Program-made: the position numbers and the translations under genes | Shown here: positions 33,395 through 64,000 of the stretch, in pieces | How the letters are laid out: every line of letters starts with the position of its first letter | Numbering within the stretch: the first letter of the stretch is position 1 | The notes under the pieces: model-generated | The model's database searches: none | What the model was told of the DNA's origin: nothing | What the model saw: only the letters and a program-made list of their open reading frames with translations | Origin: an uncultured Gammaproteobacteria bacterium | Lineage (GTDB): Bacteria; Patescibacteriota; Microgenomatia; Levybacterales; UBA12049 | NCBI GenBank assembly: GCA_964474445.1 | Contig: CAYYSJ010000004.1 | Span: forward strand, 64,185-128,184 | Length of the DNA: 64,000 nt | Direction of reading: 5' to 3'

Positions 33395-36025
33395 CTATTT
33401 TCCACTACTTTTCCCTTTTTGTGAAGACCCATTTTGGGTGTTTGGTTGGGTTTGAGCAGGTTTGCTTTGCGACTGCTGTTGTGCAGGAGGATTTGGTTTG
33501 GTTTGTGCTGGTTGTGGAGCTGCCTGTTTGGCAGGTTTAGGGGATGTTATTTGCTGTTGGATAACTTGAATACTGGTTGCACGTATCACTTCAGGTTGAG
33601 GAGGGGTGGCGGTTGTAGGTTTAGCAATAGGTTGTATTGTTGCGGACGGAATAGCGGTTGGGGAAGGCAAGAGATTTCTACCAGGAGATACTTGAGGAGA
33701 TACTCCACCAGGTTGGAGCAGATTTGGTTTTCCGGTGGGTGTTGCCTTTACACCGGTGATCAGGGGTTGAGATACACCACTTGGCACAGGAACAGAGGAG
33801 GTGATCGTTGCAGGAGTTTGTTGAGAAGTTGTTACTGATACAGGAGTATTTTGGTTTGTTGGTACAACAAGAGAAGAAGGATTTAAAGAGCCTTTTGTTA
33901 GTTGAGGTATTCCTGTGGGAGTTGTCTGTGATTGAACTGGTGCAGAAGAATCTGATTTCACTGGTTCAACAAGATTTCCATGTACGACAAGTACACTTCC
34001 TGGTTTAATAGATTGCAGTTCCACATTAGTATCTTTTGCTTTGATAGCTGTTTTTGGAGTCAGGTCAACTTGGACGAAATTCCCATTATCACTCACAACC
34101 ATTGTATTGTCTTTTGTATTCACTTTTACTGCCACAACAGGATGAGGAGCTGCTATTTCTTGAGGAATATTATTGACAATAAGAGATGGAGTAATGACGC
34201 TTCCTTTCGTGTTTCCCAATATAGCAATACTTGCGCCTTTTTTAAAACGGGAGGTTACTCCTGATTGGATATCTTCGATTGCACCGGAAGGACTTAGGGT
34301 AGGTGAGATTGCCTCAGAAATAGTTGGAGAAAGAGACGGAGAAGAGGCAGGGGTATTTTGTCCTTGAGCTGATGTTGCAGAGACTGGAGTTGGGGTTGCT
34401 GTGACATGACTTTGATCTTTTACTTTGAGATTTTGATCGACAGGGATTGTTACTTGTTGGCCTCCTGATGTTTGCACAACAATATGATCTGGTGCCGTAT
34501 CAATGATTTTTCCGACAATTGGCTGTTGTGCAAGGTTTGCAGCGGTTTTTGCATCTGCTAAATGTGGCTCAACATCAACAAGCTGAGTACGGGCTTGATT
34601 TGCAATGGTTGTAATAAGCTGTGCTCTTTGACTGTCATTTTTGGCTGAAGTGAACTGGTCATGTAATACAGAAAAACGAGTATCGGAAATTGCTTTTATC
34701 GTTAATTGGGTTGACTGATCAGGTGGAAGTACGGAATCTTTTGCAACTTGTCGTACAACATCTGATACAGTTTGGAGAGTTTGTGTTGCTTCTTGTGTTT
34801 TTCCTTGTTTTGTTAGTTGATACGCTCTTGCAAGTTCCGTTTTTGCATATGACAAGGAGACCTGTTGTCGTGCTTTTTCTCCAATAACGACTGCTTTTTG
34901 GACACCAAACCAAATAGTATTAATAACTGGGGGAAGAGTTGTTTTTGGTAAATCTTTTGGTTGAATAACAAGGGAAAGATCTTTTTGAGAAATTCCTAAG
35001 TCTGCAGCGGTGATATTGGGGAGAGGGACATTAATTGGTGTTGTAGCGCCTAAGACAGTTTGTAATGAAGGATTCATAACTAACGGATCAAGTGCTTGGG
35101 GGCTATCTGGTATGGAAGAATCGTCTTTCTCAGGAATAGTGCTTCCGACAAGGGCATAATTTCTTGTATAGATAAGCTCTGAAATGTGAGCCAAAATATT
35201 AGGATTTCCTAAATTAGAAAACATACTCAAGATATAGTGTTGATTGTTGCCAATAACAATGCCTCCATCATGATACAAAGGATCCAAATCTCCTGTCTTA
35301 TGTTCTATCGTAAGGTTTGATGGAAGGTAAGCAGGGAGCATAGAGTTAATTTTCTGGTGAGAGAGAATTTGTTGTAGCTGTTGGCTGCCTGGTAGTTTGT
35401 TGTTATCAATGATTTCGTATGCTTTTGCATAATCAGCGGCAGTTGTCGTATTAATATTGTATCCAGGGGTAGTAAATTCGTACTGTGTTTGATTATCATC
35501 TAGATTTAATTTTGATCCAACAATGGTATGTGTTAAACCCAGACTTTGTACATACTCTGTAATATTTTTTCTGTCGAATAAATCCAACAGAGTATTATAT
35601 GACGTATTATCAGATTGCGTAATCATTTTTTGAATTAACGTATCTACTGTCGTGATAAGGCCGGAGGTTAAGACAGGATATTCAGGTGTTTCCAACTCAG
35701 TTGGAACAACATTCTTATCATCTATTGTTACCCAATCAGTTAAGGAAATGTGCTTTTTGGCAATTTGATCGTACGCATACATAGCAACGAATAATTTAAC
35801 AGTACTTGCTGGAAGCCATTGCTTAGTGGAATTAATAGAGACAGTGTTAGGAGACTGTTTATCAACGAAATAAATACTAACATAATCTAAATAATTGCGA
35901 AGAGCTAAGTCAGCAATAATGGCGTCTGATAAAGAGACAGATGGTTGGGAGTCAGCAAAAACAAACTTTGGGAACAGCAAAAGAGAAAGACACAAAACAC
36001 AGAATATCTTCGCTACTTTTAGCAT
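33395..36025 (-). CDS. secreted serine hydrolase of the PBP/beta-lactamase (S11/class A-like) fold with ~500-aa low-complexity P/T/S/Q-rich C-terminal region
   Basis: Signal peptide. SxxK (ASTVK), SDN (SDNTS) and KTG (HKTGDL) motifs in order. Confidence 0.75.
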   Translation of the reverse strand: MLKVAKIFCVLCLSLLLFPKFVFADSQPSVSLSDAIIADLALRNYLDYVSIYFVDKQSPNTVSINSTKQWLPASTVKLFVAMYAYDQIAKKHISLTDWVTIDDKNVVPTELETPEYPVLTSGLITTVDTLIQKMITQSDNTSYNTLLDLFDRKNITEYVQSLGLTHTIVGSKLNLDDNQTQYEFTTPGYNINTTTAADYAKAYEIIDNNKLPGSQQLQQILSHQKINSMLPAYLPSNLTIEHKTGDLDPLYHDGGIVIGNNQHYILSMFSNLGNPNILAHISELIYTRNYALVGSTIPEKDDSSIPDSPQALDPLVMNPSLQTVLGATTPINVPLPNITAADLGISQKDLSLVIQPKDLPKTTLPPVINTIWFGVQKAVVIGEKARQQVSLSYAKTELARAYQLTKQGKTQEATQTLQTVSDVVRQVAKDSVLPPDQSTQLTIKAISDTRFSVLHDQFTSAKNDSQRAQLITTIANQARTQLVDVEPHLADAKTAANLAQQPIVGKIIDTAPDHIVVQTSGGQQVTIPVDQNLKVKDQSHVTATPTPVSATSAQGQNTPASSPSLSPTISEAISPTLSPSGAIEDIQSGVTSRFKKGASIAILGNTKGSVITPSLIVNNIPQEIAAPHPVVAVKVNTKDNTMVVSDNGNFVQVDLTPKTAIKAKDTNVELQSIKPGSVLVVHGNLVEPVKSDSSAPVQSQTTPTGIPQLTKGSLNPSSLVVPTNQNTPVSVTTSQQTPATITSSVPVPSGVSQPLITGVKATPTGKPNLLQPGGVSPQVSPGRNLLPSPTAIPSATIQPIAKPTTATPPQPEVIRATSIQVIQQQITSPKPAKQAAPQPAQTKPNPPAQQQSQSKPAQTQPNTQNGSSQKGKSSGK

Positions 36026-45164: not shown

Positions 45165-46349
45165 ATGGCAATACGTACTGTTTCTAAACTCAAGGTGGTA
45201 TCATCTTTGACAATAACACTGCTTTTGTTATCTCCTGTTGTTGCGACGAACGCGAAACTGTTTGCTCAACAGCCGACAGAAAATGATCAAATTCCTTCAG
45301 ATTTGTCATTAGACCTTAATTTGGCACAACAAAATCCAGCTCCTGATCGACAACAGATTGTTAAATCAGAAACAAAGCAAGTGGAAATTACAACAACCAC
45401 AGGGCAAACAATAACGGCGGTGCCACAAGATGTCATTGCCCCTCAAGTGAAAACAGAACCCAAGCATGATGCAGTGAATCCTGATCAAACAACATCAGAA
45501 CAAGTCGTTACAAAACCTGAGGAGATCAAGGTTGATGAAAGTGGGACGCCAGTTCCTACTGAAGTTCCAGCACAAACAGATCAAAATCAAGGATCAACAA
45601 ATAATGCTGATCATCAACAGACAAACCAACCAACAACCCAACAACAATCCAACCAACCAACAAATCAGCCAACAGGTGTTCAATCAGAAAACGGTACAAC
45701 AGGAGCACCAACCCAAACACAAAATCTTGTTCCAGGGACCGATGTTGCACAACCAGATGACAATGCTGCACCAACAGATAATTCTACAAATCCTAACCTT
45801 CCTGCTCCTACACAAGTAGATGAAATGCCGGTATCTCCATCTGTAACAGATCAACCTGTACCAAGCAGCAATGCCCAACCTACGGCGGGGAGCAATAATC
45901 AAAATACCAATAATACACCGTCATCTGTACCTCAGACTACCTCTGCTCCTCAAGATACCACGCAGCCTACAAGTACACCCGTACAGGATAATACTTCTCA
46001 ACCTCAAACTACACCTTCACAAGCTCCAGATAATTCAACAAATACGCAAGTGCAACCTACTTCAGCACAGCAACAACCCACTACTGCACCTGATAACTCA
46101 TCAAGTCCTCAATCTAGTTCTCAAACCACGACTCAACAATCTCAACCTTCGCAACAGTCTCAACCATCTGATAGTGGTAGCAATAATGCAAATCCAAGCT
46201 CTCCATCAGACAATTCAGGGAGTTCAGGAGGAGGGAGTACTCCTACTGATTCCTCAGTACAAGGAGCAGCTACCCAGCAAAATCCAGTTGTGTTATTCTT
46301 TCAGCATATAGAACAAAAATTTGTTAACTTACTCTTTAGCACAAAGTAA
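45165..46349 (+). CDS. secreted low-complexity (T/Q/P/S/N-rich) protein
   Basis: Signal peptide. Compositionally biased 394 aa. Ends TAA 3 nt before, and in frame with, the next ORF. Confidence 0.55.
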   Translation: MAIRTVSKLKVVSSLTITLLLLSPVVATNAKLFAQQPTENDQIPSDLSLDLNLAQQNPAPDRQQIVKSETKQVEITTTTGQTITAVPQDVIAPQVKTEPKHDAVNPDQTTSEQVVTKPEEIKVDESGTPVPTEVPAQTDQNQGSTNNADHQQTNQPTTQQQSNQPTNQPTGVQSENGTTGAPTQTQNLVPGTDVAQPDDNAAPTDNSTNPNLPAPTQVDEMPVSPSVTDQPVPSSNAQPTAGSNNQNTNNTPSSVPQTTSAPQDTTQPTSTPVQDNTSQPQTTPSQAPDNSTNTQVQPTSAQQQPTTAPDNSSSPQSSSQTTTQQSQPSQQSQPSDSGSNNANPSSPSDNSGSSGGGSTPTDSSVQGAATQQNPVVLFFQHIEQKFVNLLFSTK

Positions 46350-46352
46350 TCT

Positions 46353-47039
46353 ATGGATACAAAGAAAGCAGAACATAAAGTACACGAACATACCAAAGAA
46401 GTGCATGCCTCTGGTGAGCATATGCATGAGGAGCATCAAGAGAAACATAAGATGCTTCAAGAATTTTTGTGGGATAAAAGATTTATTATTCTTTTTATTC
46501 TTCTTGTTTTGCTTTTGGGTGGTTTGCTTGCGTACAAACAGTTTCATCCAGGCAAGCCTCAAGTACGAACAATTACCGTTAACAAACAAGTGTTGCAAAA
46601 ACGTTCGATGGATCTTGGGATAATTCAAAGAGGATTGACGGGAAAAGCAATAGACGTTAACACTGGAAAGATTATTAAAGCAGCACGAGTATTTTCTCCA
46701 AATGATACAACAGTCTATCTTGAGCTAGACTTTTACAGTGCTCCCAAAGGAACAGTGATTGATTATATTCGCTATAAGAATGGAAGATATGTTGACCACG
46801 GAGAGGTAACGCTCATTAAGGCAAATACAAAAAATATTCTGTTTAATTGGATTATTAATAACCTCCTTTCAAATTCTCACGATGGGAATTGGCGTGTTGC
46901 GACATACACTAATGGAGTCCTTTCAAAAAGAATTTCCTATGTCGTAACAAAAAATCAAGTTTCTTATGTCTACCCAGAAACACCAGTTCGTTCTACAGAT
47001 ACAGATTATTTATTAAGCGCTGCTTTGACGCAGCACTAA
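46353..47039 (+). CDS. membrane-anchored protein (His-rich cytoplasmic N-terminus, TM, ~150-aa outer domain); paralog of 63282..63851
   Basis: Shared block ...YIRY...G...T(Y/W)RV..YTNGV..K.ISY.V with 63282..63851. Confidence 0.6.
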   Translation: MDTKKAEHKVHEHTKEVHASGEHMHEEHQEKHKMLQEFLWDKRFIILFILLVLLLGGLLAYKQFHPGKPQVRTITVNKQVLQKRSMDLGIIQRGLTGKAIDVNTGKIIKAARVFSPNDTTVYLELDFYSAPKGTVIDYIRYKNGRYVDHGEVTLIKANTKNILFNWIINNLLSNSHDGNWRVATYTNGVLSKRISYVVTKNQVSYVYPETPVRSTDTDYLLSAALTQH

Positions 47040-47048
47040 CCATGATTC

Positions 47049-48005
47049 ATGCCAACAGAAACTACCATTCAAGGCTTGTCCTCATCAGAAGTGAGAGACA
47101 GCCAAAAGAAATTTGGATATAACGTTGATAAAACTCACGATTATACTACCCTAAAACTCATCTTCAATACACTTTTTTCAGTATTCAACATTGTTATGGT
47201 TGCTCTTATCATTATTCTTGTTCTTGTTGGAAAAGGATCAGAAGCAAAGTTCCTTGGAGTTGTGGCTGGTTTGAATACAGCAATAGCCTTAATACAAGAT
47301 ATACGGGCTCGCCTTATTGTGAAAAGATTGAGTAAGCTTTCTGAAAAAACAACAAAAGTTATACGAAATGGTGAGATAAAAGAAATTCCCATCCAAGAGT
47401 TGGTGATTGGTGACGTGATCCATTTAGCCTCAGGAGATAGGGTGCCGGTAGATGGGGAGGTATTCTCAACACAATATGCAGAATTTGATGAAAGTATTTT
47501 GACAGGTGAATCAAAATATATCGAAAAGAAAAAAGGAGAAGAGATTAAAGCTGGAAGCTTTTTGGCTGCAGGGAGTTGTAATTATACAATGACCAAATTC
47601 ACCAGAGATTCATACATCCAAACAATTACCAAACAGATTGCCAAAAAAGGCATTACAGAGTCTCCACTGCAATCGCAAATTAACCAAATTATTAAAGCGC
47701 TTACCTATATGACAATTTTCTTTATCGCACTGATCGTTGCAGAAGGACTTGTCCAGGAGAGTCAAAAAGAAGAGATTATCGTAAATGCAGCAACACTGGT
47801 AAGCTCTCTTGTTCCTCAAGGTTTGGTTCTTATTACAACAATTTCTTTTGCATATGGGGCAACAAAAATTGCAAAAAATCAGGCAATTGTCCAAAAGCTT
47901 TCGGCAATTGAGGCAATGGCAAATACAAAAGTTGTCTGTATGGACAAAACGGGTACACTCACTGAAAATCAGCTACAAGTAAAAGAAATAAAGGAGGTTA
48001 TATGA
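47049..48005 (+). CDS. cation-transporting P-type ATPase, N-terminal part (A-domain, TM1-4, phosphorylation site)
   Basis: Ends ...VVCMDKTGTLTENQLQV-KEIKEVI. VPQGL ion-site motif. Stop TGA overlaps the next ATG (ATGA). Confidence 0.85.
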   Translation: MPTETTIQGLSSSEVRDSQKKFGYNVDKTHDYTTLKLIFNTLFSVFNIVMVALIIILVLVGKGSEAKFLGVVAGLNTAIALIQDIRARLIVKRLSKLSEKTTKVIRNGEIKEIPIQELVIGDVIHLASGDRVPVDGEVFSTQYAEFDESILTGESKYIEKKKGEEIKAGSFLAAGSCNYTMTKFTRDSYIQTITKQIAKKGITESPLQSQINQIIKALTYMTIFFIALIVAEGLVQESQKEEIIVNAATLVSSLVPQGLVLITTISFAYGATKIAKNQAIVQKLSAIEAMANTKVVCMDKTGTLTENQLQVKEIKEVI

Positions 48006-49456
48006 GCGGTAAGGGACAACATGCAAAAGCATTATTAAAAACATTCTTACGTGACGTCACACAAAAGAATAAACTCGACGAAACGTTAGAAAACTATCTT
48101 AACAATATCCAACCTCTGGAAGATATGCATAAGGTAACAGAGATTCCTTTCTCATCAGAAAGAAAATACAGCGCATGTGTATATTATGAGAACATAACGC
48201 TTGTGTTGGGAGCTCCTGAAATGCTTCTTTCTGGAGAGAGTACCTATATGAAGATAATAAAGGAATATACAGAAGAGTCCTATCGTGTTGTTGTTTTTGG
48301 AATAATTGAAGGAAAGTTTGATGAGAAAAAAGAGAATGTGAGGAAAAGATTCAAACCACTATTGGTTATTGCACTTGATGATCCCATTCGAGAAGAAACA
48401 CCGTCAACGCTTGAAAAGCTTATCAAGGAACATATTGAGTATCGTATTATCTCAGGAGATTCACCTGATACTGTTGCCGCAATTGCAAAAAGGATTAATA
48501 AAGACTATCCTGCCAAGATTATTACTGGGACTGAGCTTGACGAGTTACAAGGGACAGCATTGGAAAATGCCATCTTGGAGCACACTATTTTTGCTCGCAT
48601 AAAGCCTCATCAAAAACAGCTTATTGTGAGAACACTGAAAAAAAACAAACTTTTTACCATTATGATAGGGGATGGAGTGAATGACGTGTTGGCTCTCAAA
48701 GAATCTGATTTGGGAGTAGCTATGAATGGGGGATCATCTATGGCCAAAGATGTAGCAGATGTTGTCTTGCTGAACAATTCGTTTTCTACGCTTCCAATGC
48801 TTCTTTATGAAGGGAGACGAATCATTACAAATATTCAGACAATTGCGAATATTTATCTCATAAAAAATGTTTCATCTATTGCTGCAATTCTTATGCTTGG
48901 ATTTATTGGATTACGATTTCCTTTTAATCCAAAACATGTGCAGCTTTCAAGTTTTCTGATTATCGGTATCCCATCGTTTCTTCTCGCATTTGAGAAACAC
49001 ACATTCTCAACAACCGATGAAGGTTTTATTAAGCGGTTATTGCTATTTTCAGGAATTGTTGGCTTTGGGAATGCAATCTTTTTTACGATATTGTATACAT
49101 ACTATGACGTTACCAGTCCTGTCATTTTCTATGCCCAAAGTATGTTATTGATAACAGTGATGTTTTTCGGCATTAATAACATTATTCTTATCTATCTCCA
49201 GCATTATTCATTAGAAGAAATTTTTAGGAGACAAATAGTTATTGGACTCCTCATACTGATTTTTGGGGCATTTGCCCTTTGTCTTTTGATACCTCCTCTT
49301 CGTGTGTTTTTTGATATACAAAGGGTGAGTATGTTTGACGTTCTTCTTGCTTTTTGTTTTTCCATAGTAGGATCACTCATTATCGCAGGAGTCCTTCAGC
49401 AGCAACATCTCTTGAAGTCTTTAGAGGCACCTGAAAAAGTTAAAAAGGAAGAATAA
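48002..49456 (+). CDS. cation-transporting P-type ATPase, C-terminal part (N/P domains + C-terminal TMs)
   Basis: MIGDGVNDVLALKESDLGVAM hinge motif. Preceded by AAGGAGGT SD. Confidence 0.85.
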   Translation: MSGKGQHAKALLKTFLRDVTQKNKLDETLENYLNNIQPLEDMHKVTEIPFSSERKYSACVYYENITLVLGAPEMLLSGESTYMKIIKEYTEESYRVVVFGIIEGKFDEKKENVRKRFKPLLVIALDDPIREETPSTLEKLIKEHIEYRIISGDSPDTVAAIAKRINKDYPAKIITGTELDELQGTALENAILEHTIFARIKPHQKQLIVRTLKKNKLFTIMIGDGVNDVLALKESDLGVAMNGGSSMAKDVADVVLLNNSFSTLPMLLYEGRRIITNIQTIANIYLIKNVSSIAAILMLGFIGLRFPFNPKHVQLSSFLIIGIPSFLLAFEKHTFSTTDEGFIKRLLLFSGIVGFGNAIFFTILYTYYDVTSPVIFYAQSMLLITVMFFGINNIILIYLQHYSLEEIFRRQIVIGLLILIFGAFALCLLIPPLRVFFDIQRVSMFDVLLAFCFSIVGSLIIAGVLQQQHLLKSLEAPEKVKKEE

Positions 49457-63281: not shown

Positions 63282-63851
63282 TTAAGAAACAGTATAGGAG
63301 ATTTCCTTTTCAAATACACCATTTGTATAAACTCTTACTCTATAGGTGCCTTTAGAATGAATTGCTCCTGGTTTGAGTGTCCAAGCAAAGCTTGAATTAG
63401 TAAGATTTGGTCTGGTTACTTTGAGTGCTCCGCTATCCAGAAGTTTATTATCCAAATACCTAATATATTCAAATTTAGTCCCCACTTTTGGGTTATTTAC
63501 TATCAAAACAAGATAGACTGTTTTCTGTGTTGGTATAAAAGTGTTTGCAGAAATTGTTGCATTACCAGTAGCATCCAGCGAGGAAGCAGTAATGACATTA
63601 GTCACTATCCCCATAGGTTTACTTCTTGCTAGTGTTGGTTTTAGCTGTGTCGTTGATTGCATAGAAGTGTTACTAGTTTTGTGTGCAGCAACATACAAAA
63701 CTCCAAGAAGGAGTATAAGTGTTACAAAACCGCCAAGAATATACCACATGAATTTGGATGATGACTGCGGTATTTCAGGAGTTGGCACTGGATTTTGTAC
63801 AGGAGCCACTGGTTCTGTTGGGGGTAATGTATTTGGTGTTGTACCTGGCAT
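63282..63851 (-). CDS. membrane-anchored protein, paralog of 46353..47039
   Basis: P-rich N-terminus, TM, outer domain with the shared YIRY...TYRV..YTNGV..K.ISY.V block. Preceded in frame by TAA + 3 nt and a low-complexity ORF running off the window. Confidence 0.6.
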   Translation of the reverse strand: MPGTTPNTLPPTEPVAPVQNPVPTPEIPQSSSKFMWYILGGFVTLILLLGVLYVAAHKTSNTSMQSTTQLKPTLARSKPMGIVTNVITASSLDATGNATISANTFIPTQKTVYLVLIVNNPKVGTKFEYIRYLDNKLLDSGALKVTRPNLTNSSFAWTLKPGAIHSKGTYRVRVYTNGVFEKEISYTVS

Positions 63852-64000
63852 AGGTTATCGATTAGTATTTTTGTCTTCTTGAGTATTATTAGTATTTTGC
63901 TGTGTGCCAGTTGGAGCACTACTGCTTGTTCCTGAGTTTGTGTCATCTTTCTTTTCGCCATCAGCGTTGCTTTTCTCTTGCATGCTGCCAACCCTATTGT

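What the first reader, a model, noticed from the sequence alone, without database searches (positions are those of the whole stretch)
45165..47039. Two-gene module (secreted low-complexity ORF, TAA, 3 nt, in-frame ATG, membrane-anchored domain protein) occurs twice with identical junction geometry
ORF 45165..46349 is a T/Q/P/S-rich secreted protein. It ends ...aag TAA tct ATG, and the next ORF (46353..47039) is in the same reading frame.

At the other end of the window the same arrangement recurs on the minus strand. A T/N/Q-rich ORF runs off the window edge and ends ...cga TAA cct ATG, in frame with 63282..63851.

The two downstream proteins are clear paralogs (shared block YIRY...G...TYRV..YTNGV..K.ISY.V). 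The identical stop/3-nt/ATG spacing and same-frame relationship at both loci suggest either a duplicated, translationally coupled pair or an ancestral single gene maintained with a leaky TAA. The outer ~150-aa domain appears to be an unrecognised family.
Basis: seen in the sequence. Interest (0 to 1): 0.6.

Follow-up and report, generated by a model that had tools for sequence, protein, structure and literature searches.

The report
Duplicated surface-protein gene pair in Patescibacteria
Two old copies of a conserved two-gene operon of candidate-phyla-radiation bacteria (a secreted disordered protein plus a membrane-anchored beta-sandwich protein of an undescribed family) are really there, but the identical "stop, 3 bases, start" junction is ordinary tight operon packing and not a leaky stop codon.

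Summary
U1 (45165..46349, signal peptide, 73% T/Q/P/S/N/D/G/E) ends TAA-tct-ATG in frame with A (46353..47039). On the minus strand U2 ends TAA-cct-ATG in frame with B (63282..63851). A and B are paralogs (E 4e-21, 33% identity). Separate assemblies of four sequencing runs carry the same junction, so the TAA is not an error.

The geometry is not conserved. In 52 non-redundant orthologous loci the low-complexity gene always sits directly upstream of the A homolog. The gap, however, is -4, -1, 0, 1, 2, 3, 4, 5, 6 nt or occasionally more. All three stop codons occur, and only 13 of 52 junctions are in frame (chance is one third). That rejects read-through and supports a tightly packed, probably translationally coupled operon.

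No A homolog among 97 close relatives is a long fusion. Among 132 representatives of 1.84 billion proteins there is one candidate fusion.

A and B have a short N-tail, one transmembrane helix and an extracytoplasmic Ig-like beta-sandwich with no Pfam, NCBIfam or PDB sequence match. The family is small and its named members are Patescibacteria.

Copy 1 is followed in 41 of 44 loci by a P-type ATPase, split at the same site in 35 of 35 loci. This is a real, uncharacterised module with an ordinary junction.

The parts
45165..46349 (+). U1: secreted, intrinsically disordered low-complexity protein (394 aa), first gene of module 1
   Evidence: ORF; composition. A conserved family lies upstream of every A ortholog. 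No Pfam or NCBIfam hit.
45165..45266 (+). U1 signal peptide (aa 1-34; inferred cleavage after ..LFA, before QQ; orthologs read ..HA|QQ)
   Evidence: Read from the sequence and from the ortholog N-termini listed. The cleavage site is inferred.
45291..45374 (+). U1 conserved mature N-terminal motif IPSDLSLDLxLAQQNPAPDQxxIV (aa 43-70). It is the only element shared with U2 (VQSDFGKDLQDGE)
   Evidence: Conservation profile of 37 full-length orthologs. hhalign of the U1 family against the U2 family gives probability 93.8%, E 1.7e-7 over 36 columns.
45729..45803 (+). U1 conserved internal motif (I/V)PGTxVxxPDDNAAP..NSTNPNLP (aa 189-213)
46257..46346 (+). U1 C-terminal motif VQG(A/V)ST followed by an amphipathic helix ending in K/R (aa 365-394)
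   Evidence: The hydrophobic moment of the last 16 aa is 1.45 against 0.76 for shuffles, and the mean hydropathy is about 0.1, so it is not a transmembrane segment.
46347..46355 (+). Junction 1: TAA tct ATG (3-nt spacer, same frame, no Shine-Dalgarno-like motif)
   Evidence: Identical in separate assemblies of four runs.
46353..47039 (+). A: 228-aa single-pass membrane protein with an extracytoplasmic beta-sandwich, second gene of module 1
   Evidence: 97 homologs of 129-241 aa. The start Met is nearly invariant in alignment A1.
46482..46538 (+). A transmembrane helix (aa 44-62)
   Evidence: Hydropathy scan. AF2 places a helix at aa 34-64.
46602..46970 (+). A beta-sandwich domain (aa 84-206), from the invariant RS(K) motif to the YTNG..K..Y.V block
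   Evidence: Alignment A1, AF2 model, Foldseek against PDB.
47049..48005 (+). N-terminal half of a split P-type ATPase (318 aa; actuator domain, first membrane helices, ends 13 aa after DKTGT), 9 nt after A
   Evidence: Pfam E1-E2_ATPase at 1.4e-43; NCBIfam. Adjacent to A in 41 of 44 loci. Split at this site in 35 of 35 loci.
48002..49456 (+). C-terminal half of the split P-type ATPase (484 aa; nucleotide-binding domain, rest of the phosphorylation domain, C-terminal membrane helices), overlapping the N half by ATGA
63282..63851 (-). B: 189-aa paralog of A, second gene of module 2 (transmembrane helix aa 38-56 at 63684-63740; beta-sandwich aa 76-189 at 63285-63626)
   Evidence: In the AF2 model the domain has pLDDT 94-98. 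15 homologs, two of them named Patescibacteria group bacterium.
63849..63857 (-). Junction 2: TAA cct ATG (3-nt spacer, same frame)
   Evidence: Identical in three Logan assemblies.
63858..64000 (-). 3' end of U2, the first gene of module 2. The full protein is 159 aa: a signal peptide plus an acidic, N/Q-rich low-complexity region. The gene runs off the window
   Evidence: Full sequence from L008:1924-2403, identical to the window over the overlap. The U2 family is aligned.

Best explanation
The window holds two anciently diverged paralogous copies of a two-gene operon. The operon has so far been found only in a small set of uncultured bacteria, and those of its members that carry a name are Patescibacteria (candidate phyla radiation).

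**Gene products.**
- Gene 1 (U) encodes a Sec-exported, intrinsically disordered protein, probably surface-exposed. It carries a short conserved motif at its mature N-terminus.
- Gene 2 (A or B) encodes a signal-anchored (N-in, C-out) single-pass membrane protein. It displays an Ig-like beta-sandwich of a family not yet in Pfam or NCBIfam.

**The junction.**
- The stop-3 nt-ATG junction is one of many interchangeable forms of a very tight junction: ATGA, TAAATG, TAAnATG and so on.
- Such a junction keeps the two genes on one mRNA. It most likely couples their translation by termination-reinitiation, giving matched amounts of the two proteins in an organism that rarely uses Shine-Dalgarno sites.
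- The two proteins are made separately. There is no read-through fusion.

**Likely function.**
- I infer that the beta-sandwich is the membrane tether or receptor for its secreted partner, on the outer face of the membrane.
- Copy 1 works together with the split P-type cation pump encoded immediately downstream in the same operon (U-A-ATPase N half-ATPase C half).

**Shown.** Paralogy; conserved adjacency; variable junction and frame; separate ORFs; membrane anchor plus beta-sandwich; ATPase synteny.

**Inferred.** Co-transcription; reinitiation; topology; physical U-A binding; functional link to the pump.
For: **Observation and paralogy.**

**Junction.**
- Identical in separate assemblies of several sequencing runs.
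- In 52 non-redundant orthologous loci a T/Q/P/S/N/D/G/E-rich ORF lies directly upstream every time (58-87% of its residues are of these eight kinds).
- Gaps: -4 in 9 loci, -1 in 1, 0 in 2, 1 in 14, 2 in 4, 3 in 6, 4 in 3, 5 in 5, 6 in 2, and six longer ones.
- 46 of 52 gaps are 6 nt or less, and 13 of 52 are in frame.
- B-type loci pair a U2-like gene with a B-like gene at gaps of 6, 6, 5, 0 and an overlap.

**Whole-module duplication.** The U1 and U2 families share the post-signal-peptide motif (hhalign probability 93.8%, E 1.7e-7).

**Age of the duplication.** No nucleotide similarity remains between the two modules.

**No fusions.** All 97 close homologs are 129-241 aa. Of 132 representatives among 1.84 billion proteins, almost all are 150-260 aa.

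**The domain lies outside the cell in other architectures**.
- A lipoprotein with four tandem copies.
- Fusions to PG_binding_1.
- A membrane-anchored protein with leucine-rich repeats.

**Link between U and A.** One candidate natural fusion of a U-like and an A-like part, P0227, links the two products.

**Membrane anchor.** Strong transmembrane helix (mean hydropathy 2.68). The N-tail can be as short as 4 aa, as in MNNQKG, which is typical of a signal anchor.

**Fold.** AF2 models of A and B independently hit the same Ig-like beta-sandwiches.

**Translation signals.** A Shine-Dalgarno-like motif precedes only 8 of 56 ORFs, and TAA ends 39 of 56.

**ATPase.** It follows A in 41 of 44 loci with enough downstream sequence.
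Against: - There is no expression, proteomic or interaction data. Co-transcription and reinitiation are inferred from spacing alone.
- The positive-inside rule is not decisive: 2.9 K/R on the N-terminal flank against 3.3 on the C-terminal flank.
- The U1-U2 homology rests on 36 columns, part of which is signal peptide.
- U2 lacks the C-terminal helix of U1, and module 2 is not next to an ATPase. The link to the pump is therefore not intrinsic to the pair.
- Fold matches are weak (E about 1e-4, 10-17% identity, rmsd 4-6 A) and give no specific function.
- Four of six B-type junctions (the window's and three of five orthologs) are in frame. The sample is too small to mean anything, but it does not by itself exclude read-through in that branch.
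- The candidate fusion P0227 is known from one 2.2-kb contig only.
Confidence: 0.75

Rival explanations
1. Programmed read-through of a leaky TAA, or an ancestral single gene only recently interrupted. On this reading the functional product is a fusion: signal peptide, low-complexity region, transmembrane helix, then domain.
For: - Both junctions in the window are in frame with a 3-nt spacer.
- Four of six B-type junctions are in frame.
- One distant relative, P0227, is a single ORF with a U-like part and an A-like part.
Against: - Only 13 of 52 A-type junctions are in frame, which is below the chance rate of one third.
- Nine junctions overlap as ATGA and 14 have a 1-nt gap. Stops are TAA, TAG or TGA.
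- The start Met of A is nearly invariant.
- No long fusion occurs among 97 close homologs.
- A fusion would place the domain in the cytoplasm, yet related architectures put it outside the cell.
- From general knowledge, UAA is the least leaky stop codon in bacteria.
- TGA and TAA are both used as ordinary stops in this window.
Confidence: 0.03
2. A is an accessory subunit of the downstream split P-type ATPase. Its architecture parallels the beta subunit of Na,K-ATPase or KdpC: one transmembrane helix plus an outward-facing domain. U1 would be a further extracellular component, for instance a cation-binding or protective layer. The U-A pair would then be secondary to pump function.
For: - The order U-A-ATPase N half-ATPase C half is kept in 41 of 44 loci, with gaps of a few to about 50 nt.
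- In the window, A ends 9 nt before the ATPase start.
- A has a short N-tail, one transmembrane helix and an Ig-like ectodomain.
- The C-terminal amphipathic helix of U1 is found only in the ATPase-linked module.
Against: - Paralog B and its orthologs are never next to an ATPase.
- Three A-type loci lack the ATPase.
- No sequence or fold match to KdpC, the Na,K-ATPase beta subunit or CDC50 appeared.
- Synteny alone does not show a complex.
Confidence: 0.2
3. The two genes are unrelated neighbours, and the repeated arrangement is a coincidence of a compact genome.
For: Short gaps are common in the window: 8 of 33 same-strand pairs are 12 nt or less apart.
Against: - Adjacency is kept in 52 of 52 A-type loci and 5 of 5 B-type loci, at protein identities down to 39%.
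- Both partners of the pair were duplicated together.
- There is one candidate fusion.
Confidence: 0.02
4. Sequencing or assembly error: a spurious stop splits one gene.
For: None found.
Against: - The junction is identical in separate assemblies of four runs (module 1) and three runs (module 2).
- Every ortholog has two ORFs.
Confidence: 0.01

Closest known systems
Translationally coupled operon gene pairs (termination-reinitiation at ATGA, TAATG or stop-few nt-ATG junctions, as in trpE/trpD and trpB/trpA of E. coli; textbook knowledge)
   Same: - Same-strand genes separated by -4 to +6 nt in 46 of 52 loci.
- No need for a Shine-Dalgarno site.
- The junction form varies while its tightness is conserved.
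   Different: Coupling has not been shown experimentally here. The organism uses Shine-Dalgarno sites rarely in general (8 of 56 ORFs), so reinitiation is an inference.
Single-pass accessory subunits of P-type ATPases: KdpC of KdpFABC, the beta subunit of Na,K- and H,K-ATPase, and CDC50 of P4 flippases
   Same: - One transmembrane helix with an outward-facing domain, which in the Na,K-ATPase beta subunit is Ig-like (my recollection, not checked here).
- The gene lies immediately next to the pump gene in 41 of 44 loci.
   Different: - No sequence or detectable fold relationship.
- The paralog B is not linked to a pump.
- No biochemical evidence.
Lipid- or glycan-binding Ig-like beta-sandwiches: RhoGDI, UNC119, PDE6delta, NPC2 (ML domain) and the Wzt carbohydrate-binding domain. 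Also the uncharacterised Leptospira protein 6oe6
   Same: These are the best structural matches for both the A and the B model. E is 1e-4 to 1e-3. TM-score normalised by target is 0.33-0.55, and 100-135 columns are aligned.
   Different: - 10-17% identity, rmsd 4-6 A, and no sequence-level match.
- Those proteins are soluble, and most are eukaryotic and cytosolic.
- A ligand pocket was not examined.
Serine/threonine/proline-rich, mucin-like, disordered surface proteins of monoderm bacteria that are tethered by a C-terminal sorting signal (for example LPXTG with sortase)
   Same: - Signal peptide and a long T/S/P/Q/N-rich disordered region.
- A conserved C-terminal tripartite end: a motif (VQGxST), a helix, then basic residues.
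   Different: - The C-terminal helix is amphipathic and too polar to span a membrane (mean hydropathy about 0.1).
- There is no LPXTG and no match to any NCBIfam sorting-signal model.
- U2 lacks this end altogether.

Membership tests
Programmed stop-codon read-through / recoded gene | Upstream and downstream ORFs are in the same frame across related genomes | tested here: not met
   13 of 52 orthologous junctions are in frame (chance is one third). Nine are ATGA overlaps and 14 are 1-nt gaps.
Programmed stop-codon read-through / recoded gene | A conserved stop-codon identity and context promotes read-through | tested here: not met
   TAA, TAG and TGA are all found. Spacers are not conserved: tct, att, tat, tgt, aat.
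Programmed stop-codon read-through / recoded gene | A fused protein product is detected | not testable with these tools
   This needs proteomics or ribosome profiling.
Translationally coupled operon pair | Same strand, and the stop of gene 1 overlaps or lies within a few nt of the start of gene 2, conserved across relatives | tested here: met
   The gap is 6 nt or less in 46 of 52 A-type loci. B-type loci have gaps of 0, 3, 5, 6, 6 and one overlap.
Translationally coupled operon pair | Translation of gene 2 depends on translation of gene 1 | not testable with these tools
   This needs reporter fusions with premature stops in gene 1. There is no Shine-Dalgarno-like motif before either downstream ATG, which is compatible with coupling but is not proof.
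Paralogous (duplicated) module | The downstream proteins are significantly similar | tested here: met
   BLASTP E 4e-21, 33% identity over 165 aa. AF2 gives the same fold and the same PDB neighbours for both.
Paralogous (duplicated) module | The upstream proteins are also homologous | tested here: inconclusive
   hhalign probability 93.8%, E 1.7e-7, but over only 36 columns that include the end of the signal peptide. No tblastn match between U1 and U2 in the window.
Known Pfam / NCBIfam domain family | A significant match to a curated model | tested here: not met
   No family for U1, A or B in Pfam at E up to 0.01. In NCBIfam, U1 and B match nothing at E up to 1, and A and U2 have only chance-level hits, all of which score far below the curated cut-offs. 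Distant relatives match only through their other domains. No PDB sequence relative.
P-type ATPase accessory subunit (KdpC / Na,K-ATPase beta / CDC50) | Homology to one of those families | tested here: not met
   No Pfam or NCBIfam hit. None among the top 50 Foldseek hits.
P-type ATPase accessory subunit (KdpC / Na,K-ATPase beta / CDC50) | Conserved genomic linkage to the pump gene | tested here: met
   41 of 44 A-type loci. Not so for the B-type loci.
P-type ATPase accessory subunit (KdpC / Na,K-ATPase beta / CDC50) | Physical association with the pump and an effect on its activity | not testable with these tools
   This needs co-purification or a multimer structure prediction.
Type IV pilin-like protein (class III signal peptide) | A G at -1 followed by a hydrophobic helix with Glu at +5 | tested here: not met
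   A sub-clade begins MNNQKG-IALPIIILL. It has no Glu at +5, and most members, including A and B, lack the Gly.

The most novel reading that the evidence does not exclude
The four-gene operon encodes a new kind of bacterial P-type pump assembly.
- The catalytic chain is naturally split just after the DKTGT phosphorylation site.
- It has a beta-subunit-like single-pass partner (A) carrying an Ig-like ectodomain.
- A tethers a long, disordered, possibly glycosylated secreted protein (U1) over the pump.
- The unlinked U2-B copy would be a pump-independent derivative of the same tether and ligand pair.

If correct, this would be a KdpC-like or beta-like accessory system for a P2/P3-like ATPase in episymbiotic, ultra-small bacteria.
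Probability: 0.15. Interest if true: 0.7.

Novelty: new member of a known kind. Interest (0 to 1): 0.3.

Why it matters
**The junction.** It is not a recoding event. This removes a false lead and shows that an identical stop-3 nt-ATG in two paralogous operons is what compact operons produce by chance.

**What remains.**
- A small protein family, absent from Pfam and NCBIfam, whose members that carry a name are Patescibacteria. It is a membrane-anchored Ig-like beta-sandwich.
- It is always paired with a secreted disordered partner, and usually sits in an operon with a consistently split P-type ATPase.
- Patescibacteria depend on cell-surface contacts and on uptake from hosts. Conserved surface modules of unknown function are therefore reasonable targets once cultured representatives can be manipulated genetically.

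**The split pump.** It is a natural experiment on how the domains of a P-type ATPase assemble.

Tried and rejected
- **Genome collection.** The scan returned only 3 loci. They are labelled 'uncultured Gammaproteobacteria' MAGs, which conflicts with the Patescibacteria names of homologs. I treat the label as unreliable.
- **Cluster look-up.** It gave no names.
- **Curated families and solved structures.** Pfam, NCBIfam and PDB sequence searches found nothing significant for U1, U2, A or B.
- **Promoter and terminator scans.** Both operons gave counts equal to shuffled controls. They say nothing about transcription units.
- **Nucleotide alignment of the two modules.** Only 11-18-nt chance matches, so a recent duplication or gene conversion is rejected.
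- **Literature.** Searches for a split P-type ATPase, or for P-type ATPases in Patescibacteria, found nothing relevant.
- **Pilin idea.** Considered because some A-family N-termini look like prepilin signals. Rejected: no Glu at +5 and the Gly is not conserved.
- **Sortase or exosortase-type C-terminal sorting signal for U1.** Considered and rejected: the helix is amphipathic and no model matches.
- **Alternative genetic code.** Considered and rejected: TGA, TAG and TAA all end long, Pfam-supported ORFs.
- **Modelling a U-A complex.** Not attempted. The structure tool takes a single chain and returns no contacts.
Full report
**1. The observation**

It holds at the stated coordinates.
- ORF 45165..46349 (+) encodes a 394-aa protein with a hydrophobic N-terminal signal-like segment. 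The rest is dominated by T, Q, P, S, N, D, G and E (73%).
- The DNA reads aag TAA tct ATG at 46344-46355. Because 46353 minus 45165 is 1188, ORF 46353..47039 (228 aa) is in the same frame.
- On the minus strand the sequence reads cga TAA cct ATG (TAA 63857-63855, ATG 63851-63849). The open frame upstream of the stop runs off the window.
- The two downstream proteins, here called A and B, align with E 4e-21 and 33% identity over 165 residues. They are the only copies in the window.

The stop codons are not errors.
- The module-1 junction is identical in separate Logan assemblies of runs SRR12266073, 74, 76 and 77.
- The module-2 junction is identical in three of them.
- Contig L008 is identical to the window over the shared 719 nt. 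It supplies the whole upstream gene of module 2: a 159-aa protein, U2, with a signal peptide and an acidic, N/Q-rich body.

**2. Is the geometry meaningful?**

I collected 3 loci from reference genomes and 60 from metagenomes that encode A homologs of 39-73% identity. I then analysed every junction by script.
- In all 52 non-redundant loci with enough upstream sequence, the immediate upstream same-strand ORF is a low-complexity ORF (58-87% T/Q/P/S/N/D/G/E).
- The distances from its stop to the ATG of the A homolog are:

| Gap (nt) | -4 | -1 | 0 | 1 | 2 | 3 | 4 | 5 | 6 | 12, 15, 21, 23, 28, 77 |
|---|---|---|---|---|---|---|---|---|---|---|
| Loci | 9 | 1 | 2 | 14 | 4 | 6 | 3 | 5 | 2 | 1 each |

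- So 46 of 52 gaps are 6 nt or less, but only 13 of 52 are in frame, no more than the one third expected by chance.
- TAA, TAG and TGA all occur, and the 3-nt spacers differ.

What is conserved is tightness. Frame, spacing and stop identity are not.
- In the window itself TAA ends 39 of 56 long ORFs, and a 3-nt gap has a frequency of about 0.12 among orthologs. A second TAA-3 nt-ATG junction is therefore an unremarkable coincidence, roughly one in ten.
- It cannot be an inherited feature either. Orthologs far closer to A than B is already differ in it, and no nucleotide similarity remains between the two modules.

**3. Read-through or an ancestral fused gene is rejected**
- The frame statistics argue against it, and ATGA overlaps and 1-nt gaps cannot give a fusion.
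- The start Met of A is nearly invariant in the alignment.
- All 97 close homologs are 129-241 aa.
- A profile search of 1.84 billion representatives found only 132 relatives, nearly all of 150-260 aa.
- The window uses TGA, TAG and TAA as ordinary stops of Pfam-supported genes. There is no sign of an altered code.
- From general knowledge, UAA is the least leaky stop codon.

The one exception is P0227, a 420-aa ORF on a single 2.2-kb contig.
- It has a signal peptide, a U-like motif (SDFTADVQSG), an acidic low-complexity region, a helix and then the beta-sandwich.
- It is the top hit of both the U1 and the U2 profile among 241 proteins, but the hits are weak (E 5e-5 and 1.6e-3).
- I read it as a single candidate gene fusion that links the two products functionally, not as the ancestral state.

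**4. What the genes encode**

*U1 family*, with residue numbers of the window's U1:
- a signal peptide ending ..HA|QQ;
- a conserved mature N-terminal block IPSDLSLDLxLAQQNPAPDQ..IV (aa 43-70);
- a second block ..VKTES..A.NP(D/E)QTTSEQVV (aa 88-116);
- (I/V)PGT..xPDDNAAP..NSTNPNLP (aa 189-213);
- a long variable low-complexity stretch;
- a C-terminal VQG(A/V)ST motif followed by an amphipathic helix ending in K/R. Its hydrophobic moment is 1.45 against 0.76 for shuffles, and its mean hydropathy is about 0.1, so it does not span a membrane.

*U2 family*:
- a signal peptide, then VQSDF(A/G)KDLQDGE..AND.E.K.NQKDEKD.ENVG, then an acidic tail;
- no C-terminal helix.

Profile-profile comparison aligns the end of the signal peptide plus the SD(L/F)..DL motif of the two families. 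The probability is 93.8% and E is 1.7e-7, but only 36 columns are aligned. This suggests the whole pair was duplicated, though it is not conclusive.

*A and B*:
- a variable N-tail of 4-44 aa, in the window's A with 8 His among the first 34 residues;
- one strongly hydrophobic helix (mean Kyte-Doolittle 2.68);
- a linker ending in an invariant RS(K);
- a beta-sandwich of about 110-125 aa with invariant positions concentrated in ..DYIRY..G.YVD.G.., F.W and G.W.. .TYTNG...K...Y.V.

AlphaFold2 gives a confident sandwich. For B the domain has pLDDT 94-98 and the mean is 81.6. For A the mean is 75.

Foldseek against PDB returns the same neighbours for both models.
- They are RhoGDI, UNC119, PDE6delta, NPC2, the Wzt carbohydrate-binding domain and the uncharacterised Leptospira protein 6oe6.
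- E is about 1e-4, identity 10-17%, and the TM-score by target is 0.33-0.55.
- This establishes an Ig-like sandwich, and its nearest solved relatives happen to bind lipids or glycans. It does not establish a function.

**5. Topology**

The K/R balance around the helix is even (2.9 against 3.3). Two lines of evidence nevertheless point to N-in, C-out.
- Many members begin with a few charged residues directly followed by the helix (MNNQKG-IALPIIILL..), which is the form of a signal anchor.
- Distant relatives carry the same domain in clearly extracytoplasmic settings:
  - a lipoprotein with four tandem copies (P0234);
  - fusions to the peptidoglycan-binding domain PF01471 (P0224, P0213);
  - a membrane-anchored protein with leucine-rich repeats (P0140).

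U and the domain of A or B are therefore expected on the same (outer) side of the membrane.

**6. Context**
- Module 1 is the front of a four-gene, same-strand cluster. A ends 9 nt before a P-type ATPase that is itself in two ORFs, 47049..48005 and 48002..49456, joined by an ATGA overlap.
- An ATPase N half follows the A homolog within a few to about 50 nt in 41 of 44 loci with more than 400 nt of downstream sequence.
- In 35 of 35 non-redundant loci the ATPase is split at the same place, 12-18 residues after DKTGTLT. The junctions vary (-79 to +6 nt, with two larger gaps) and so do the stops. The split is real and conserved.
- Module 2 and its orthologs are stand-alone pairs with varying neighbours and no ATPase.

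**7. Organism**
- Named homologs of B and of the window's 876-aa serine hydrolase come from 'Patescibacteria group bacterium', Candidatus Woesebacteria and Saccharimonadales.
- GC content is 37-41%. Only 8 of 56 long ORFs have a Shine-Dalgarno-like motif.
- The label 'uncultured Gammaproteobacteria' on three MAG contigs is probably a mis-assignment.

**8. Mechanism proposed**

*Shown:*
- two diverged paralogous copies of a conserved gene pair;
- tight but variable junctions;
- separate ORFs;
- a signal peptide and a disordered body for U;
- a membrane anchor plus beta-sandwich for A and B;
- ATPase synteny for copy 1.

*Inferred:*
- the pair is co-transcribed, and the second cistron is translated by ribosomes that have just terminated on the first. 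This is termination-reinitiation, the classical reading of ATGA, TAATG and stop-few nt-ATG junctions, and it would give matched amounts of the two proteins;
- U is exported and its signal peptide removed;
- U is held at the cell surface by the beta-sandwich of its partner. The most likely contact is the mature N-terminal SD(L/F)..DL motif, the only element shared by U1 and U2;
- in copy 1 the complex works with the split pump.

My confidence in the operon, paralog and no-read-through core is about 0.85-0.9. For the tether-ligand step it is about 0.4. For a direct role as a pump subunit it is about 0.2.

**9. Comparison with known systems**
- *Junction.* It belongs to the well-known class of translationally coupled operon junctions. 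It fails both testable criteria for programmed read-through.
- *A and accessory subunits.* A resembles KdpC and the Na,K-ATPase beta subunit in architecture and in gene linkage only. Homology was tested and not found.
- *U1 and surface proteins.* U1 resembles mucin-like surface proteins of monoderm bacteria, but it lacks any recognised sorting signal.

**10. Verdict**

The finding is real as a sequence observation, and the family is uncharacterised. Its striking element, the identical in-frame TAA junction, is ordinary. Interest is modest for the module itself. The conserved split P-type ATPase next to it is the more unusual item and deserves its own follow-up.

Noticed in passing
window 47049..48005 and 48002..49456 (+); loci L005-L067: The P-type ATPase is encoded as two ORFs, split 12-18 residues after the DKTGT phosphorylation motif. 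The same split site is found in 35 of 35 non-redundant related loci, with varying junctions (overlaps of up to 79 nt, gaps of up to 6 nt, two larger) and varying stop codons. It is therefore a conserved natural split, not an assembly error. A literature search for 'split P-type ATPase' found nothing.
   Followed up: partly
window about 47750-47790 (ATPase N half..SSLVPQGLVLITT..): The motif that aligns with the TM4 cation-site PEGL of P2-type pumps reads PQGL, with Gln in place of the cation-binding Glu. This reading rests on my own knowledge of the motif. The best NCBIfam matches are far below the equivalog cut-offs (type IIIA H+ for the N half, generic or IIA Ca for the C half), so the transported substrate is unclear.
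   Followed up: no
window 46353..46454 (A residues 1-34): The cytoplasmic N-tail of A has 8 His in 34 residues (..EHKVHEHTKEVHASGEHMHEEHQEKHK..). Only the closest relatives keep a His-rich tail, and many family members have a tail of just 4-8 residues. It could be a lineage-specific metal-binding tail next to a cation pump, or mere compositional drift.
   Followed up: no
L077:733-1995 (protein P0227): A single 420-aa ORF combines a signal peptide, a U-like SDFxxDVQ motif, an acidic low-complexity region, a helix and the A-type beta-sandwich. It is a candidate natural fusion of the two genes of the module. It is known from one 2.2-kb contig of one sample.
   Followed up: partly
proteins P0234, P0224, P0213, P0217, P0225, P0228, P0140: Distant relatives carry the beta-sandwich in other architectures. 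These are a lipoprotein with four tandem copies, PG_binding_1 plus the domain, a transmembrane helix plus TPR repeats plus the domain, and a transmembrane helix plus the domain plus leucine-rich repeats and a Cys-rich tail. The domain is a mobile extracytoplasmic module that still lacks a Pfam entry.
   Followed up: partly
loci L040, L047-L054, L061, L062, L066 (A-family sub-clade): The N-termini read MNNQKG / MNKQKG followed directly by IALPIIILLIA.., and so look superficially like class III (prepilin-type) signal peptides. They lack the Glu at +5, and the same sub-clade has the ATGA-overlap junctions.
   Followed up: partly
whole window: Only 8 of 56 ORFs of 150 aa or more have even a weak Shine-Dalgarno-like motif upstream. 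70% of them end in TAA, and TGA is used as a stop, so the standard code applies.
   Followed up: partly
L005, L006, L007 (CAZSWA010000015.1, CAYQEE010000025.1, CAYMJR010000030.1): These MAG contigs carry the same four-gene operon but are titled 'uncultured Gammaproteobacteria bacterium'. Named homologs of other window genes are Patescibacteria. The taxonomic label is probably wrong.
   Followed up: no
window 33395..36025 (-): This 876-aa ORF is a large serine hydrolase of the class A beta-lactamase type (PF13354). It has many Patescibacteria homologs, some of which also match DUF5663 (PF18915) or LysM (PF01476).
   Followed up: no
orthologous junctions, for example L031, L005, L026 (..aaggaggaaaTAA..ATG): In many orthologs the last codons of U1 (..GGK or ..GK, written ggaggaaa) form a GGAGG-like sequence just upstream of the A start. 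The C-terminal residues of U may thus double as a ribosome-binding site. The window's own junction (..agcacaaagTAAtctATG) lacks it.
   Followed up: no
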